Shown in pieces: positions 6,550 through 52,075 of a stretch of DNA of 64,000 nt (position 1 is its first letter; the number at the start of each line of letters is the position of its first letter). This DNA comes from a virus. The notes under the pieces were generated by a model. That model was given only the letters and a program-made list of their open reading frames with translations. It had not been told where the DNA came from and searched no databases. A program made the position numbers and the translations under genes. The stretch lies in UHGV virus genome UHGV-0240317. The stretch is one strand, 5' to 3'.

Positions 6550-7003
6550 AGAAGTAGTCCAAAAAGCAATGCTTGACAACTCAACTAAAGACGAAATGTA
6601 CAAAGAAATTTGTGATAAGTTGAATTGCTCAAGACATGCTGCTAAGGTTCTTGTACATTGTTTTATCTGGGAATGTTCAGAAGCTTATATGCAATATGTA
6701 GCGTTTGAAAGTTCTCACTTACTAGGTGATGTAGAAGCTGGTGAGAAGCTAAAAGAACCTGAGATGAAAACAGTCCCTAGAGTCGGTAATACATACCCTC
6801 TTAAAGATTTCAAGACTGGAAAGATTGTTGCAAAAGGTGTAGTAGAGTCTGTCTACCATGATGGTAAATACTTACTTAAAATATTTGAGTATGATAGCTA
6901 CTATACGCACTTATGTGGGATTACATTCTTGGTAACAGAAGAAGACCTCATTAAGAACAATGACAACAAGTTTGCAGTACCAGATTACCAAGTTTTACGA
7001 TAA
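6539..7003 (+). CDS. hypothetical protein
   Basis: ORF track. Confidence 0.6.
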   Translation: MKIKEVVQKAMLDNSTKDEMYKEICDKLNCSRHAAKVLVHCFIWECSEAYMQYVAFESSHLLGDVEAGEKLKEPEMKTVPRVGNTYPLKDFKTGKIVAKGVVESVYHDGKYLLKIFEYDSYYTHLCGITFLVTEEDLIKNNDNKFAVPDYQVLR

Positions 7004-7016
7004 TGGTGTGATAGAT

Positions 7017-7565
7017 ATGGAAAAAGATAACTTAAAAGAAGTTGAAGGTAACTACCTAGTCCTTGACTGGAGTGATGCTCAAGAAGCACTCTCTGAAGAA
7101 AGTCTTGACAGATTAAAACAGATTGTTTTTGCAGTACGTGGTTACAGAGAAGTTAAAAATGGTAAAGAGCCACTTGAAGGAATCTTTGTAGAGAAGTCTT
7201 ATCCGTTCTATGAAGACACTTTACAGAAAGTTAAGATGTACTTTAGACAGAAGAACCGTAAAGTAGTCACTATGGTATCTCTTGGTGGACAGAGTATGTC
7301 TGTGATGGAAGATATCAACCCTAAGAGACCGAGTAAAGGTGTTTGTATAAAAATCACAGGTCATGAAGAGTATATCTCAGTGGATGACTTTAGAGCATTC
7401 TGTAGTGGTTCTTGTGTCTTTAATGGTTTTCACTATGATATCCGAGTTTACCCAATCAAGGGTGATGGTATCATGATGCAGGTATTTGATAACAACAATG
7501 GATTTACTCATTTTTATCAGACAACCAAGTCATCATTAAAAACAGTTCTGGAAACACTGATTTAA
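7017..7565 (+). CDS. hypothetical protein
   Basis: ATG at 7017 just after the upstream stop; track ORF extends further 5'. Confidence 0.55.
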   Translation: MEKDNLKEVEGNYLVLDWSDAQEALSEESLDRLKQIVFAVRGYREVKNGKEPLEGIFVEKSYPFYEDTLQKVKMYFRQKNRKVVTMVSLGGQSMSVMEDINPKRPSKGVCIKITGHEEYISVDDFRAFCSGSCVFNGFHYDIRVYPIKGDGIMMQVFDNNNGFTHFYQTTKSSLKTVLETLI

Positions 7566-7575
7566 AATATCTTAA

Positions 7576-7601
7576 GAGCCTCCTTAATTGGGGGCTTTTT
7601 A
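7576..7601 (+). terminator. rho-independent terminator
   Basis: AGCCTCC-ttaatt-GGGGGCT followed by T-run; ends the plus-strand cluster. Confidence 0.6.
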
Positions 7602-7609
7602 ATTTTTAT

Positions 7610-9225
7610 AAAATTTTATCGGTTGTTCCAACCTCTGGGTCACCATCATATGTGAATAAAAATATCTATCCTTCTTAACAACCTTCTTAAGCTTACTCTC
7701 TATATATAGTTATATAGTACTATATAGTATCTTAGTATCTATCTAGTGGTCTTAATAGCCCCTCTGTATAGCCCTTCTAAACACTCTTCTAACAAGCCTT
7801 CTTAACAACCTATACAATCACCTTAACCATCTCTCTACACTCTCTTAGAAGCTCCTATACACCTCTTAATCTCTATGTCAGCTATGTTACTCTCTATAGA
7901 TGTTCACTAGGTATTACTAAGCCTCTATATAGACTTTTTTAACAAACTTAACAGGAGTATCTTTACAGACCTTATCTCACAAGGTCTAACACGGTACTAA
8001 CAAGGTATCTTATAAGCCTGTTATTACCTGTATTTTTAAAAGGCTGTATAGGTAATTATTCAGAATCTTAAAATTTTTATAAAATAGGACTATCAAGTCA
8101 TTTTTTAGGGTCTTTGAAGGAACTGAAAAATATCTGTCTAGGATGTATATCTGCTTGGTAGCCCTTAACAGCTCCCTTACAAGTACTTTGCAGAATTTTA
8201 AAGTATCCTTAACAATCTCTTAACAGTTCTCACACCTTCTTAACAACTCTTCAAAGGTCTTAACAGATTCTTAACAGAACTAACAAGGCTGTAACAAGTT
8301 CTTAACAGTCAATACATGGTATTTATAGTTTCTTAACAGATGACTAATAAGAGCTAACAAGTTAATTTTTAAGAGTTATTTTGTAGGGATTGGTAACAAT
8401 ACCAATTAAGATAATTAACAAGTTTCTAACAAGTGTTTAATCTTTTTAACAAGCTATTAACATGGTCACAGTGGTTGGTTACAAACACAACTTCTCTTTC
8501 TTATCGTTCCCTTTGCTTCTTAGTGATTCTTTAAACATACCTCTTAAAAGCTCTGTACAGCTCTGTATAGCCTCTTTTAAGTCTCTTCCTAGTAGTTACA
8601 CCCCAACTGTACAGATAGCTCTTTATAGGGCTTTACAGGGGCTTTTAAGGCTATGTCAAAGACTCTTACAAGGCTTTTACGTGGTCTTAACAGAGATTTA
8701 ACAAGGGGCTAACAAGTTGCTAACAAGTGCCTTAAAAGCATAACTATGTAGGGTTTGTTAAGAAATTGTTGAGAAAATGTTAAGGGGGCTAGCATTTACG
8801 TAACTTTGAAGATACATTTACGTAACTTTATAGCCCCTTTTACGTAACTTCAAAGTAACTTTAAAGCCCCTATAACATACTTTTTAGTGACTATCAAGGG
8901 GTTGTTTAGTTATTCACAAGATAGCTAACGAGATAATAAAGCTTACACCCTTATAAGATTCTTTTAAGGCTCTAGGAAGCTTTATAAAGGGCTTTTTAGG
9001 GTGAGTTAATGCAATCCCTTAAGTTAGGTTGATAAGGCTGTTATAGAGCTTTATAGAGCGTTTAAATGGGCCATCCCCTTTCTGGGGGTTATTGGCTTTT
9101 ATTTAAGTTGATTTGATAAGAGGTTATAGAGTAGACTATAGAGTTATTGCTTTTAAGGTCTGATAAGATTCTGGAAAGGTGAGGAAAGGGATTGTATAGG
9201 GGTTTGATAAGACGTAAAAAAAAAA
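7610..9225. repeat. ORF-free repeat-rich region (iteron-like motifs)
   Basis: many copies of CTTAACA(A/G)/CTAACAAG, three TTTACGTAACTT (8810-8860), four TGATAAG + TATAGAG (9040-9220); no credible ORF. Confidence 0.6.
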
Positions 9226-9282
9226 GCCCCTATGAGAAGGAGCTTTGAAGGTATCTGGGGCTATTTAGCCCCGCTGCGTCGA
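9225..9282 (-). terminator. terminator-like hairpins ending the minus-strand small-gene cluster
   Basis: GGGGC/GCCCC hairpins followed on the minus strand by a T10 run. Confidence 0.45.
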
Positions 9283-9531
9283 TTAGTTATAATCTTGTTT
9301 GTTGTAGTACAGGGAGACGATTTTTTCTCCCCAATAGTGATAAGTGTGACCATGCGTAAGAACTTCCTGTTTTGTTTCCTCCCAGAACTCATCCGAAGGA
9401 TTATAATCTTTGATGGTCTGACTGATAATACCTTTCACCATTTCAAAGGTGTTATCAGTGCCTGCAATGTCAAATTTAACATCCAGAGAGGAAAAACCGA
9501 ACTCGTTAACAGTAGCGCGGATAGTTGCCAT
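9283..9531 (-). CDS. hypothetical protein
   Basis: ORF preceded by class A conserved upstream element with GGAGA RBS. Confidence 0.55.
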   Translation of the reverse strand: MATIRATVNEFGFSSLDVKFDIAGTDNTFEMVKGIISQTIKDYNPSDEFWEETKQEVLTHGHTYHYWGEKIVSLYYNKQDYN

Positions 9532-50229: not shown

Positions 50230-50590
50230 CACCAGCATCACTTAAGAGTCTTTTAAAAGGGTTTTTAAGTAATGTGATGTTTGGTTTGGTGTGGTCAGGT
50301 AATGTGATGTCTGGTTTAGTGCGGTGATGTGCGGTCCGGTAAGGTCCGGTGCGGTAAAGTGCGGGTAGTTAGTCTCAGCTACATTAAAATGAGACTTACC
50401 TTTTTAAAAGGTCTTTAAGAGGGTCTTTTAATAAGGTGCTGTATGGTAAGGTGATGTCTGGTGTGGTAGGGTGAGGTTAAGTGAAGTGAAGTGAGGTGAG
50501 GTATGGGTGGATGGTAGTAGCCACGTTAAAAATCTACCAAGTTTCTAAAGAGTCTTCTGTTGAGGGTTCTTTACAAACAACTTAACAATC
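50230..50590 (+). repeat. GT-rich structured repeat array 1
   Basis: AAGAGTCTTTTAAAAGGGTTTTTAAG-type motifs, GGT-rich tracts, hairpin 50363-50400, terminal hairpin 50513-50538. Confidence 0.7.
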
Positions 50591-51654: not shown

Positions 51655-51680
51655 GTAGCCTCTTCGGAGGCTCCTTTTTA
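51655..51680 (+). terminator. rho-independent terminator
   Basis: AGCCTC-ttcg-GAGGCT followed by T-run. Confidence 0.65.
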
Positions 51681-52075
51681 AAAGGTCTTTAAGAGGGTCT
51701 TTTAATGAGGTTTGGTATGGTCAGGTATGGTGTGGTGTTGTAAGGTTTGGTGCGGTCAGGTTAGGCTTGGTATGGGTAGTTAATCGGAGCTACATAAAAA
51801 TCCGATTACATCACTTAAGAGTCTTCTAAGAGGGTTTTTAAGTGGTGTTTGGTAGGATAGAGTAAGGTAAGTTAAGGTAGGGTGAGGTCTGGTATGGTAA
51901 GGTAATGTATGGGTAGTTAATCGGAGCTACATAAAAATGAGACTCACATCACTTAAGAGTCTTTAAAAAGGGTTTTTAAGTGTTGTGAGGTGATGTAAGG
52001 TCGGGTATGGCTATGTCTTGTATGGTTTGGTATGGAAGGATGGCAGTAGCCTTATAAAAAATCTGCCAAATAAGC
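51681..52075 (+). repeat. GT-rich structured repeat array 2
   Basis: same unit as array 1; hairpins at 51773-51808 and 51910-51946; terminal hairpin 52041-52067. Confidence 0.7.

What the first reader, a model, noticed from the sequence alone, without database searches (positions are those of the whole stretch)
7610..9225. 1.7 kb ORF-free repeat-rich region between convergent gene clusters: candidate replication origin, packaging site or regulatory hub
No credible ORF lies between the terminator at 7576-7601 and the minus-strand cluster ending at 9283. The region is packed with short repeats: more than 15 copies of CTTAACA(A/G)/CTAACAAG (7670-8720), TATATAGT runs (7700-7760), three TTTACGTAACTT (8810-8860), and four TGATAAG plus TATAGAG repeats (9040-9220). 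Several families of evenly spaced short repeats suggest binding-site arrays for DNA-binding proteins, as at origins or packaging sites. It also carries AAGATTCTTTTAAGG/AAAGGGCTTTTTAGGG (8940-8990), related to the motif in the 50-52 kb arrays.
Basis: partly seen in the sequence, partly recalled or inferred. Interest (0 to 1): 0.6.

Follow-up and report, generated by a model that had tools for sequence, protein, structure and literature searches.

The report
Phage genome ends and packaging junction
The gene-free, repeat-packed 1.7 kb stretch is where a Felix O1-like phage cuts its replicated DNA into genome lengths: it holds the roughly 630-bp sequence found at both ends of the packaged chromosome, a feature already known for this phage group.

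Summary
Window 7600-9222 has no conserved ORF, lies between two convergent terminators, and carries short repeats far above chance (T[AT]ACA[AG]: 30 copies on one strand against 4.3 in shuffles).

The window is a Felixounavirus (Felix O1-like myovirus). Four independent GenBank relatives carry exact terminal direct repeats (DTRs) of 581-628 bp. Their two boundaries map to the same window positions, 8156|8157 and 8789|8790, at motifs invariant across three genera. In UAB_Phi87 the motif-to-motif distance is 614 bp, against a measured DTR of 608 bp.

The region is therefore the concatemer junction:
- left unique flank, 7600-8156
- predicted DTR, 8157-8789 (633 bp)
- right unique flank, 8790-9222

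It is as conserved as, or more conserved than, the neighbouring genes. Its layout (one-orientation CTTAACA arrays left of and inside the repeat, a different repeat family on the right) recurs in an Erwinia phage of the same subfamily. The closest analogue is the T7 terminal repeat with its CCTAAAG arrays.

"Origin" is untested and has little support. "Regulatory hub" is not supported.

What the repeat arrays do, probably binding a packaging protein, is inferred. This is ordinary biology for the genus, with some new anatomical detail.

The parts
7574..7599 (+). Rho-independent terminator ending the + strand gene cluster (last ORF 6960-7565). It is the left limit of the non-coding module.
   Evidence: 10-pair stem followed by a T run. 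KhF1 annotates a terminator at the homologous place.
7600..8156 (.). Left unique flank of the concatemer junction. It is non-coding and is the most conserved segment within the genus (92-95% identity to relatives). It holds 7 same-orientation TWACAR sites, the TATATAG run at 7700-7729 and an AT-rich stretch at about 8030-8100.
7978..8017 (.). Nearly invariant block CACAAGGTCTAACACGGTACTAACAAGGTATCTTATAA(G), containing the palindrome CTTATAAG (8009-8016). In most relatives the palindrome sits a fixed 144 bp from the left repeat boundary. It is a candidate recognition element (inferred).
   Evidence: CTTATAAG occurs only twice in the 64 kb window, at 8009 and 8950.
8142..8170 (.). Left boundary motif GATGTATATCTGCTT|GGTAGCCCTTAACA, with the cut between 8156 and 8157. 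It is nearly invariant (two single-base variants among 18 sequences) in Felixounavirus, Suspvirus and Mooglevirus.
   Evidence: The terminal repeats of D4, ZX4221, NBEco004 and SPJ41 begin at GGTAGCCC.
8157..8789 (.). Predicted direct terminal repeat (633 bp). It should be present once per junction in concatemers and at both ends of virion DNA. It contains 23 TWACAR sites on the + strand (8166-8721), often 11 bp apart.
   Evidence: Homologous repeats are 569-658 bp in relatives.
8756..8789 (-). Three copies of the motif in the opposite orientation (TGTTAAG 8756, TGTTGAG 8767, TGTTAAG 8778; 11-bp spacing), followed by GGGGGC, which is the right end of the repeat. Copy number varies: one relative has five.
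8790..8870 (.). Variable-number tandem array that starts at the first base outside the right boundary (TAGCATTTACGTAACTT...). Units contain TTACGTAA / GTAACTT. The window has 3 TTACGTAA, at 8796, 8818 and 8840; relatives have 1 to about 7 units.
   Evidence: It matches the "additional repeat element of 33 bp" that distinguishes VSe102 from VSe11 (PMC5968733).
8790..9222 (.). Right unique flank of the junction. It is non-coding and has no TWACAR sites. It holds TGATAAG x4 (9030, 9114, 9161, 9205), TATAGAG x4 and a weak, poorly conserved hairpin at 9073-9089.
   Evidence: TATAGAG positions read
8938..8975 (.). Nearly invariant block AAGCTTACACCCTTATAAGATTCTTTTAAGGCTCT, containing the second CTTATAAG (8950-8957). 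It forms an imperfect inverted repeat with 8002-8021 (16 of 20 bases). It is a candidate recognition element (inferred).
   Evidence: pair I16
9223..9246 (-). Rho-independent terminator ending the - strand cluster (last ORF 9283-9531). It is the right limit of the module.

Best explanation
The region is the genome-end (concatemer-junction) module of a Felix O1-like phage.

**Proposed mechanism.**
1. Replicated DNA forms head-to-tail concatemers that carry one copy of the 633-bp segment 8157-8789 per junction.
2. During packaging the terminase cuts at two fixed sites, 8156|8157 and 8789|8790.
3. The segment between them is duplicated by DNA synthesis, so every virion chromosome begins and ends with it (a short, non-permuted direct terminal repeat, as in T7).
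4. The non-coding flanks (7600-8156 and 8790-9222) and the repeat arrays are the cis-acting signals for this reaction. These include the helically phased, one-orientation CTTAACA-type sites, the two CTTATAAG blocks, and the TTACGTAA array that abuts the right cut. They most likely bind the small terminase subunit or another packaging or end-organising protein and give the reaction its direction.

**Shown.** The position of the repeat in relatives, the invariant boundary motifs, the absence of genes, the strong conservation, and the subfamily-wide layout.

**Inferred.** That this phage's own virion DNA ends there, the cut-and-copy mechanism, and which protein binds which repeat.
For: - **Identity.** 256 phage records match the region; those listed or fetched are Ounavirinae, mostly Felixounavirus. 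184 cover at least 80% of it, and the best place in each record is 60-95% identical.
- **Exact terminal duplications in relatives.** D4 has 581 bp, ZX4221 591 bp, NBEco004 628 bp and SPJ41 613 bp. All four start at GGTAGCCC and end at AAGGGGGC (NBEco004: AAAGGGGC), which are window 8157 and 8789.
- **Further record ends.** NBSal004, H12 and ECOH1 begin or end at one of these positions; SPT-1 ends within about 5 bp and MET-P1-301 within about 20 bp.
- **Experimental support from the literature.** UAB_Phi87 has a 608-bp DTR by Bal31 digestion and run-off sequencing (PMC4837284); the boundary motifs in its genome are 614 bp apart. Pr103Blw has a 581-bp DTR by PhageTerm (PMC8303462).
- **Boundary conservation.** The boundary motifs are nearly invariant across three genera: two single-base variants on the left, and a variant form of the right motif in Suspvirus and Mooglevirus.
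- **Selection on the non-coding DNA.** It is as conserved as, or more conserved than, the flanking genes. In Suspvirus and Mooglevirus, 77-95% of it aligns, against 14-37% of the flanking genes.
- **Layout in a fourth genus.** Erwinia phage phiEa104 has CTTAAC arrays left of and inside a 439-bp boundary-delimited segment, and a different array on the right.
- **Known analogue.** T7 shows the same design, with CCTAAAG heptamers in one orientation inside and beside its 160-bp repeat.
- **Transcription.** Both flanking clusters converge on the region and end at terminators, as expected if it is a pure cis element.
Against: - No reads or virion DNA of this particular phage were available, so its own ends are predicted by homology.
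- The record ends of relatives come from assemblies or PhageTerm runs. Only UAB_Phi87 has wet-lab mapping, and its published length differs by 6 bp from the motif distance.
- Motif positions are only slightly more conserved than the spacers inside the repeat: 0.89 against 0.85 within the genus (permutation p = 0.18) and 0.80 against 0.68 across genera (p = 0.04).
- No hairpin of the kind invoked for T7 repeat duplication is predicted at either boundary.
- No protein has been linked to any of the repeats. The large terminase gene was not identified among the window ORFs scanned.
Confidence: 0.8

Rival explanations
1. The arrays form a replication origin, either instead of or alongside the packaging role. 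Same-orientation repeats would act as iterons for a phage initiator, and the AT-rich stretch at 8030-8100 would be the unwinding element.
For: There are many directly repeated, helically phased short sites. A stretch of 20-24% GC lies next to them. Conservation is strong. From general knowledge, T7 has secondary origins near its ends.
Against: The two DnaA-box matches (7651, 8910) are not conserved in relatives, and boxes are not enriched. The flanking genes show no initiator or any other known domain. GC skew changes here only as expected from the switch in gene strand. The replication genes lie 30-40 kb away, around a divergent switch near 44 kb. Nothing links replication to this site in the papers searched.
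Confidence: 0.2
2. The region is a regulatory hub, holding promoters, small RNAs or transcription-factor arrays that control neighbouring genes.
For: Motifs of the AAGRKTCTTTTAAGG type (8102, 8642, 8961, 8993, 9150) resemble the head of five intergenic elements at 50.2-52.1 kb. A weak internal hairpin followed by a T run lies at 9073-9089.
Against: Both neighbouring clusters are transcribed towards the region and terminate at its edges, so no gene lies downstream of it. Sigma-70-like sites are at chance level, 7 against 6.1. There is no Rfam match at or near a gathering score. The 9073-9089 hairpin lies in a poorly conserved 30-bp block (0.57 within the genus).
Confidence: 0.08
3. The arrays serve the DNA ends after ejection rather than packaging. 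They could bind a protein that protects the ends from RecBCD, pairs the two repeats for recombination into concatemers, or paces DNA entry, in the manner of the T5 injection-stop region.
For: Most sites (23 of 30) lie inside the repeat and so sit at both ends of the injected DNA. The PhageMaP paper suggests the relative Bas63 lacks a RecBCD inhibitor. No Chi site lies near the ends.
Against: This is purely inferential and no candidate protein is known. The most conserved blocks lie outside the repeat, in the unique flanks, which fits recognition on concatemers better than action on free ends.
Confidence: 0.1
4. The region is non-functional filler: decayed genes or slippage-prone junk between two operons.
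For: Copy number of the 11-bp and roughly 22-33-bp units varies between relatives, and the repeat length ranges from 569 to 658 bp.
Against: The region is retained at 1.4-1.8 kb in every relative examined. It is as conserved as, or more conserved than, the coding neighbours. Some blocks are invariant across three genera, and the layout recurs in Erwinia phages.
Confidence: 0.02

Closest known systems
Direct terminal repeats of Felixounavirus phages (UAB_Phi87 608 bp; Pr103Blw 581 bp; Felix O1 and FO1a 'short terminal repeats')
   Same: It is homologous DNA: the listed full-length relatives are 84-92% identical. The boundary motifs are the same, and the predicted 633-bp repeat falls within the 569-658 bp range of relatives. 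This is the same element in another member of the genus.
   Different: The papers found report only the presence and length of the repeat, or mention "a noncoding region containing repeat sequences". None of those read describes its position between the convergent clusters, the boundary motifs, the CTTAACA arrays, the CTTATAAG blocks or the variable array.
Phage T7 concatemer junction: 160-bp terminal repeat with the SRL/SRR arrays of CCTAAAG heptamers
   Same: Both have a short, exact, non-permuted terminal repeat. Both have a 7-8-bp motif repeated in a single orientation inside the repeat and in the adjacent unique DNA. T7 has 3 copies in the repeat, 8 in the array on the left and 2 exact copies on the right. 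Both lie in a gene-free junction region. In T7, insertions at most end loci are tolerated, except near the repeat boundary (PhageMaP paper).
   Different: The two motifs differ in sequence; sequence similarity between the two regions was not searched for. The repeat here is four times longer and holds most of the sites. T7 has early promoters and phiOL/phiOR reading out of the junction. Here transcription converges on the junction and no promoter signal exceeds chance. No boundary hairpin is predicted. The virus is a myovirus and unrelated to T7.
Multi-site pac regions of headful phages (P1 pac hexamer arrays; SPP1 pacL/pacR) bound by small terminase
   Same: Both have arrays of short repeated sites on one face of the helix that could wrap around an oligomeric DNA-binding protein (my comparison, from general knowledge).
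   Different: Those phages make permuted, variable ends. Here the ends are fixed at two invariant positions in independent isolates.
Iteron-type replication origins (lambda ori, plasmid oriV)
   Same: Both have direct repeats in one orientation next to an AT-rich stretch.
   Different: The sites here are 7-8 bp rather than 17-22 bp. There is no adjacent initiator gene and no conserved DnaA boxes. The region coincides with the genome ends.

Membership tests
Short direct-terminal-repeat (T7-type, non-permuted) genome ends | The same sequence is present at both ends of the linear virion genome. | tested here: met
   Met in relatives. Exact duplications of 581, 591, 628 and 613 bp lie at both ends of four GenBank records, and they are homologous to window 8157-8789. 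For this phage itself it is inferred.
Short direct-terminal-repeat (T7-type, non-permuted) genome ends | Ends lie at fixed, sequence-defined positions rather than being permuted. | tested here: met
   The four records share identical boundaries (GCTT|GGTAGCCC and GGGGC|TAGCATTTACG). More records end at one of the two sites. The motifs are nearly invariant in 18 sequences from three genera.
Short direct-terminal-repeat (T7-type, non-permuted) genome ends | Physical demonstration of the ends (nuclease time course, run-off sequencing, read-start peaks, doubled coverage). | not testable with these tools
   No reads are available for this phage. Literature for relatives: UAB_Phi87 608 bp by Bal31 and run-off sequencing (PMC4837284), consistent with the 614-bp motif distance; Pr103Blw 581 bp by PhageTerm.
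Short direct-terminal-repeat (T7-type, non-permuted) genome ends | The large terminase groups with terminases of DTR phages. | not tested
   Reported for UAB_Phi87, Felix O1 and wV8 in PMC4837284. The large terminase was not among the ten large window ORFs scanned.
T7-like short-repeat arrays (SRL/SRR) beside the terminal repeat | A heptamer-scale motif repeated in one orientation within and next to the repeat. | tested here: met
   30 TWACAR sites on the + strand against 4 on the - strand: 23 in the repeat, 7 in the left flank, 0 in the right flank. The T7 pattern was checked directly.
T7-like short-repeat arrays (SRL/SRR) beside the terminal repeat | Sequence relationship to the T7 motif, or the T7 junction layout (outward early promoters, phiOL/phiOR). 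| tested here: not met
   The motif is different (CTTAACA against CCTAAAG). Transcription is convergent and promoter-like sites are at chance. This is an analogue, not a homologue.
Iteron-type replication origin | Repeated initiator sites together with an AT-rich unwinding element. | tested here: inconclusive
   Repeats are present. A stretch of 20-24% GC lies at about 8030-8100. Both features are equally expected at a packaging site in a 35% GC region.
Iteron-type replication origin | An adjacent initiator gene, or conserved host-initiator (DnaA) boxes. | tested here: not met
   Nine flanking proteins have no Pfam domain and only function-unknown PHROGs. The DnaA-box matches are not conserved and not enriched.
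Iteron-type replication origin | Replication starts here in vivo. | not testable with these tools
   This needs marker-frequency analysis or 2D gels.
Headful pac site | Terminally redundant, circularly permuted ends spreading from one cut region. | tested here: not met
   Both ends are fixed and identical in independent isolates.
Known non-coding RNA families (Rfam) | A covariance-model match at or near the gathering score. | tested here: not met
   The best hits score 18-26 bits against gathering scores of 47-93. Two of the three overlap the flanking terminators.

The most novel reading that the evidence does not exclude
The one-orientation, helically phased CTTAACA array is conserved across the whole subfamily Ounavirinae, although the surrounding sequence has diverged beyond BLAST recognition in Erwinia phages. 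Together with the two CTTATAAG blocks placed in inverted orientation outside the repeat, it could form a previously undescribed nucleoprotein machine. An unidentified phage protein would coat the repeat and position two opposite-strand nicks about 600 bp apart. The same complex might also serve as the replication start or protect the ends.
Probability: 0.25. Interest if true: 0.5.

Novelty: new member of a known kind. Interest (0 to 1): 0.3.

Why it matters
**For annotation.** The result gives exact coordinates (8157 and 8789) at which genomes of this genus should be opened. It explains why many records carry spurious small ORFs or unexplained "repeat_region" features here.

**For biology.** How phages with short terminal repeats recognise and duplicate their ends is only partly understood, even in T7. 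The Felix O1 group is widely used for Salmonella typing, biocontrol and therapy. This analysis gives it sharply defined, testable candidate signals:
- two boundary motifs that are nearly invariant
- two flanking palindrome blocks
- a phased site array
- a variable-number array abutting one cut

These could guide the engineering of packaging-competent vectors. They also warn against placing insertions here.

Tried and rejected
- **Coding potential.** All six frames were scanned in 18 homologous regions and no ORF of 40 aa or more is conserved. The small ORFs annotated by some depositors are therefore rejected.
- **Structured RNA.** An Rfam search at a permissive E-value returned only sub-threshold hits; two of the three overlap the flanking terminators.
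- **Promoters.** Sigma-70-like sites are at chance level.
- **tRNAs.** None in the window.
- **DnaA boxes, IHF sites, GATC.** The two TTATNCACA matches looked promising but are not conserved. One IHF core match is not significant.
- **Boundary hairpins, as in the T7 model.** Folding energies are no better than shuffles.
- **UAB_Phi87 GenBank record as a direct read-out of the ends.** The record (87,603 bp) is not opened at the physical ends, so the boundary-motif distance was used instead.
- **Other record ends inside the region** (window about 7831, 8079, 8374, 8522). They do not agree with each other and were treated as arbitrary assembly breakpoints.
- **PhageMaP fitness data for the Felixounavirus Bas63.** The library targeted genes only and no supplementary tables are held.
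- **Literature searches** for any description of this region, an origin or a pac site in Felix O1-like phages. They found only the repeat lengths and one mention of a repeat-containing non-coding region.
- **Motif against spacer conservation.** The difference is small and not significant within the genus, so it is not used as strong evidence.
Full report
**What is in the sequence**

Between the + strand terminator at 7574-7599 and the - strand terminator at 9246-9223 lie about 1.6 kb without a credible gene. The last ORFs of the two flanking clusters are 6960-7565 (+) and 9283-9531 (-), so transcription converges on the region. The only ORF of 40 aa or more inside it (8462-8701, 79 aa) is absent from all 17 relatives examined, and no ORF is shared among them.

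- T[AT]ACA[AG], the core of CTTAACAA/G and CTAACAAG, occurs 30 times on the + strand between 7676 and 8721 and only 4 times on the - strand. The background is about 2 per kb.
- A TATATAG run lies at 7700-7729.
- TTACGTAA occurs at 8796, 8818 and 8840.
- GTAACTT occurs 4 times.
- TGATAAG occurs 4 times, at 9030-9205.
- YTNTATAG occurs 11 times.

Dinucleotide-preserving shuffles of the region never reach these counts; for example, TWACAR scores 30 against a mean of 4.3 and a maximum of 11. Spacings of the main motif cluster at 11, 20-22 and 31-33 bp.

**What the window is**

The region matches 256 phage records, Felix O1-like (Ounavirinae) wherever listed or fetched and mostly Felixounavirus. 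Of these, 184 cover at least 80% of the region, and the best place in each record is 60-95% identical. Depositors leave it unannotated, or mark only "repeat_region" or terminators. The window also carries rIIA, NAMPT, ribonucleotide reductase, primase/helicase, DNA polymerase, ligase and tail-fibre genes typical of the group.

**The key result: the genome ends lie inside the region**

Published work shows that these phages have short direct terminal repeats:
- UAB_Phi87: 608 bp, by Bal31 digestion and run-off sequencing (PMC4837284).
- Pr103Blw: 581 bp, by PhageTerm (PMC8303462).
- Felix O1: "short terminal repeats" inferred (PMC3185647).

In the similarity searches, several records begin or end inside my query at the same two positions. 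I fetched both ends of five of them. Four carry exact terminal duplications:

| Phage | Exact terminal duplication |
|---|---|
| vB_EcoM_D4 | 581 bp |
| ZX4221 | 591 bp |
| NBEco004 | 628 bp |
| SPJ41 | 613 bp |

In all four the repeat starts at GGTAGCCC and ends at AAGGGGGC (NBEco004: AAAGGGGC). It is preceded by ...ATATCTGCTT and followed by TAGCATTTACG.... The fifth record, MET-P1-301, is trimmed by about 20 bp at each side.

These boundaries map to window 8156|8157 and 8789|8790, so the predicted repeat here is 8157-8789 (633 bp). In UAB_Phi87 the two motifs are 614 bp apart, against the measured 608 bp. Across 15 Felixounavirus sequences (the window included) the motif-delimited segment is 569-658 bp. 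The boundary motifs are nearly invariant in Felixounavirus, Suspvirus and Mooglevirus.

**Anatomy**

- **Left unique flank, 7600-8156.** It holds 7 main-motif sites, the TATATAG run, an AT-rich stretch at about 8030-8100, and a nearly invariant block at 7978-8017.
- **Repeat, 8157-8789.** It holds 23 main-motif sites in one orientation. Its right end carries three copies in the opposite orientation at 11-bp spacing (8756-8784), followed by GGGGGC.
- **Right unique flank, 8790-9222.** It has no main-motif sites. It begins with a variable-number array of TTACGTAA/GTAACTT units, ranging from 1 to about 7 copies among relatives. This matches the 33-bp repeat difference reported between VSe11 and VSe102 (PMC5968733). 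Further on lie a second nearly invariant block at 8938-8975 and the TGATAAG and TATAGAG repeats.
- **CTTATAAG palindromes.** This palindrome occurs only twice in the 64 kb window, at 8009 and 8950, once in each invariant block and once on each side of the repeat. All 18 sequences keep both copies. The left copy sits a fixed 144 bp from the boundary in most of them. With their flanks the two copies form an imperfect inverted repeat, matching at 16 of 20 bases (pair I16).

**Evidence of function**

Identity to five genus-level relatives:

| Segment | Identity |
|---|---|
| Left flank | 92-95% |
| Repeat | 85-87% |
| Right flank | 88-92% |
| Flanking genes | 85-94% (with lower coverage) |

In Suspvirus and Mooglevirus, 77-95% of the non-coding segments still align at about 80% identity, while only 14-37% of the flanking genes do.

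In Erwinia phage phiEa104 (Kolesnikvirus), BLAST similarity is almost gone. A 1.43-kb gene-free gap between convergent clusters nevertheless shows the same design:
- boundary-like motifs 439 bp apart
- CTTAAC arrays left of them (7 copies) and between them (7 copies), none to the right
- opposite-orientation copies near the right boundary
- a different array (TTAGAAG, 11 copies) on the right

Within the repeat, motif columns are only slightly better conserved than spacers, so I do not lean on that measure.

**Mechanism**

The best-supported reading is that this is the concatemer junction of a phage with T7-type ends. There is one copy of 8157-8789 per junction. Terminase cuts at the two invariant sites. 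DNA synthesis copies the segment between them, so that both daughter ends carry it.

The positions of the ends in relatives are shown. The cut-and-copy chemistry is inferred from established models for short-repeat phages. I infer that the phased, one-orientation sites and the flanking conserved blocks are the recognition platform for the small terminase or an associated protein. Two inverted recognition blocks would suit nicks on opposite strands.

No hairpin is predicted at either boundary, so the hairpin-primed variant proposed for T7 has no support here.

**Rivals**

- **Origin.** An origin could coexist with the packaging role but has little specific support. The DnaA-box matches are not conserved or enriched. 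The flanking proteins are all of unknown function. The skew change only follows gene orientation.
- **Regulatory or RNA role.** This is unlikely. Nothing lies downstream of the region, promoter-like sites are at chance, and Rfam finds nothing.
- **Junk DNA.** The conservation data exclude it.
- **Role at the free ends after ejection** (protection or synapsis). This cannot be excluded.

**Comparison with known systems**

This is the same element as the terminal repeat already reported for Felixounavirus, seen in another member of the genus.

Functionally it most resembles the T7 junction. I checked T7 directly. Its 160-bp repeat holds 3 CCTAAAG heptamers, with 8 more in the adjacent left array and 2 exact copies on the right, all in one orientation. 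The differences are:
- the motif is different
- the repeat here is four times longer and holds most of the sites
- transcription converges on the junction rather than leaving it

In T7, barcode insertions at most end loci are tolerated, except near the repeat boundary. No comparable data exist for the Felixounavirus Bas63.

**Novelty and verdict**

The finding is real and functional but ordinary for the genus: a new member of a known kind. None of the papers I could search or read describes the following, although absence from this library is not proof:
- the exact boundary motifs
- the subfamily-wide CTTAACA layout
- the paired CTTATAAG blocks
- the variable array abutting the right cut

Interest is about 0.3.

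Noticed in passing
window 1-64000: GATC is completely absent from the 64 kb window, against 186 +/- 12 expected from dinucleotide-preserving shuffles. This is extreme avoidance of a Dam / MboI-type site.
   Followed up: partly
window 50230-50530 and 51660-52070: There are five copies of a composite intergenic element on the + strand. Each has a ~30-nt head (such as CACTTAAGAGTCTTTTAAAAGGGTTTTTAAG), then ~90 nt of G/T-rich sequence with 8-nt periodicity, then a hairpin-like GTAGTTAGTCTCAGCTAC...GAGAC tail. They lie downstream of the DNA ligase gene and around two small ORFs. The head weakly resembles 8949-9000 in the junction region. Relatives annotate only a promoter and a terminator there. 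Its function is unexplained.
   Followed up: partly
L025, L030, L033 and SPJ41 just left of the left repeat boundary; L013 and L023 in the right flank (window equivalents about 8141 and about 8898): A related 24-27-bp insert with internal dyad symmetry appears at two different places in different relatives (TTGATTCGGTAGAATCTACCTCAT and TAGGATTCGATAGATTCCTATCTCATA). It is absent from this window. It may be a tiny mobile or recombination-derived element.
   Followed up: partly
window 8790-8870 and 8756-8789: Two minisatellite-like arrays sit at the right repeat boundary. One has ~22-33-bp TTACGTAA/GTAACTT units (1 to about 7 copies among relatives). The other has 11-bp TGTTAAGAAAA units (3-5 copies). 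They could serve as strain-typing markers in this genus.
   Followed up: yes
GenBank records of relatives (UAB_Phi87 Phi87_32-34; vB_EcoM_D4 CDS0001 and CDS0149; Michonne gene 111): Small ORFs annotated inside the homologous non-coding region differ from record to record and are not conserved, so they are probably spurious calls. Many records are also opened at arbitrary points, and the UAB_Phi87 record does not start at its published physical end.
   Followed up: yes
window 8462-8701: A 79-aa ATG ORF lies wholly inside the predicted terminal repeat. It is unique to this genome and is most likely a chance ORF.
   Followed up: yes
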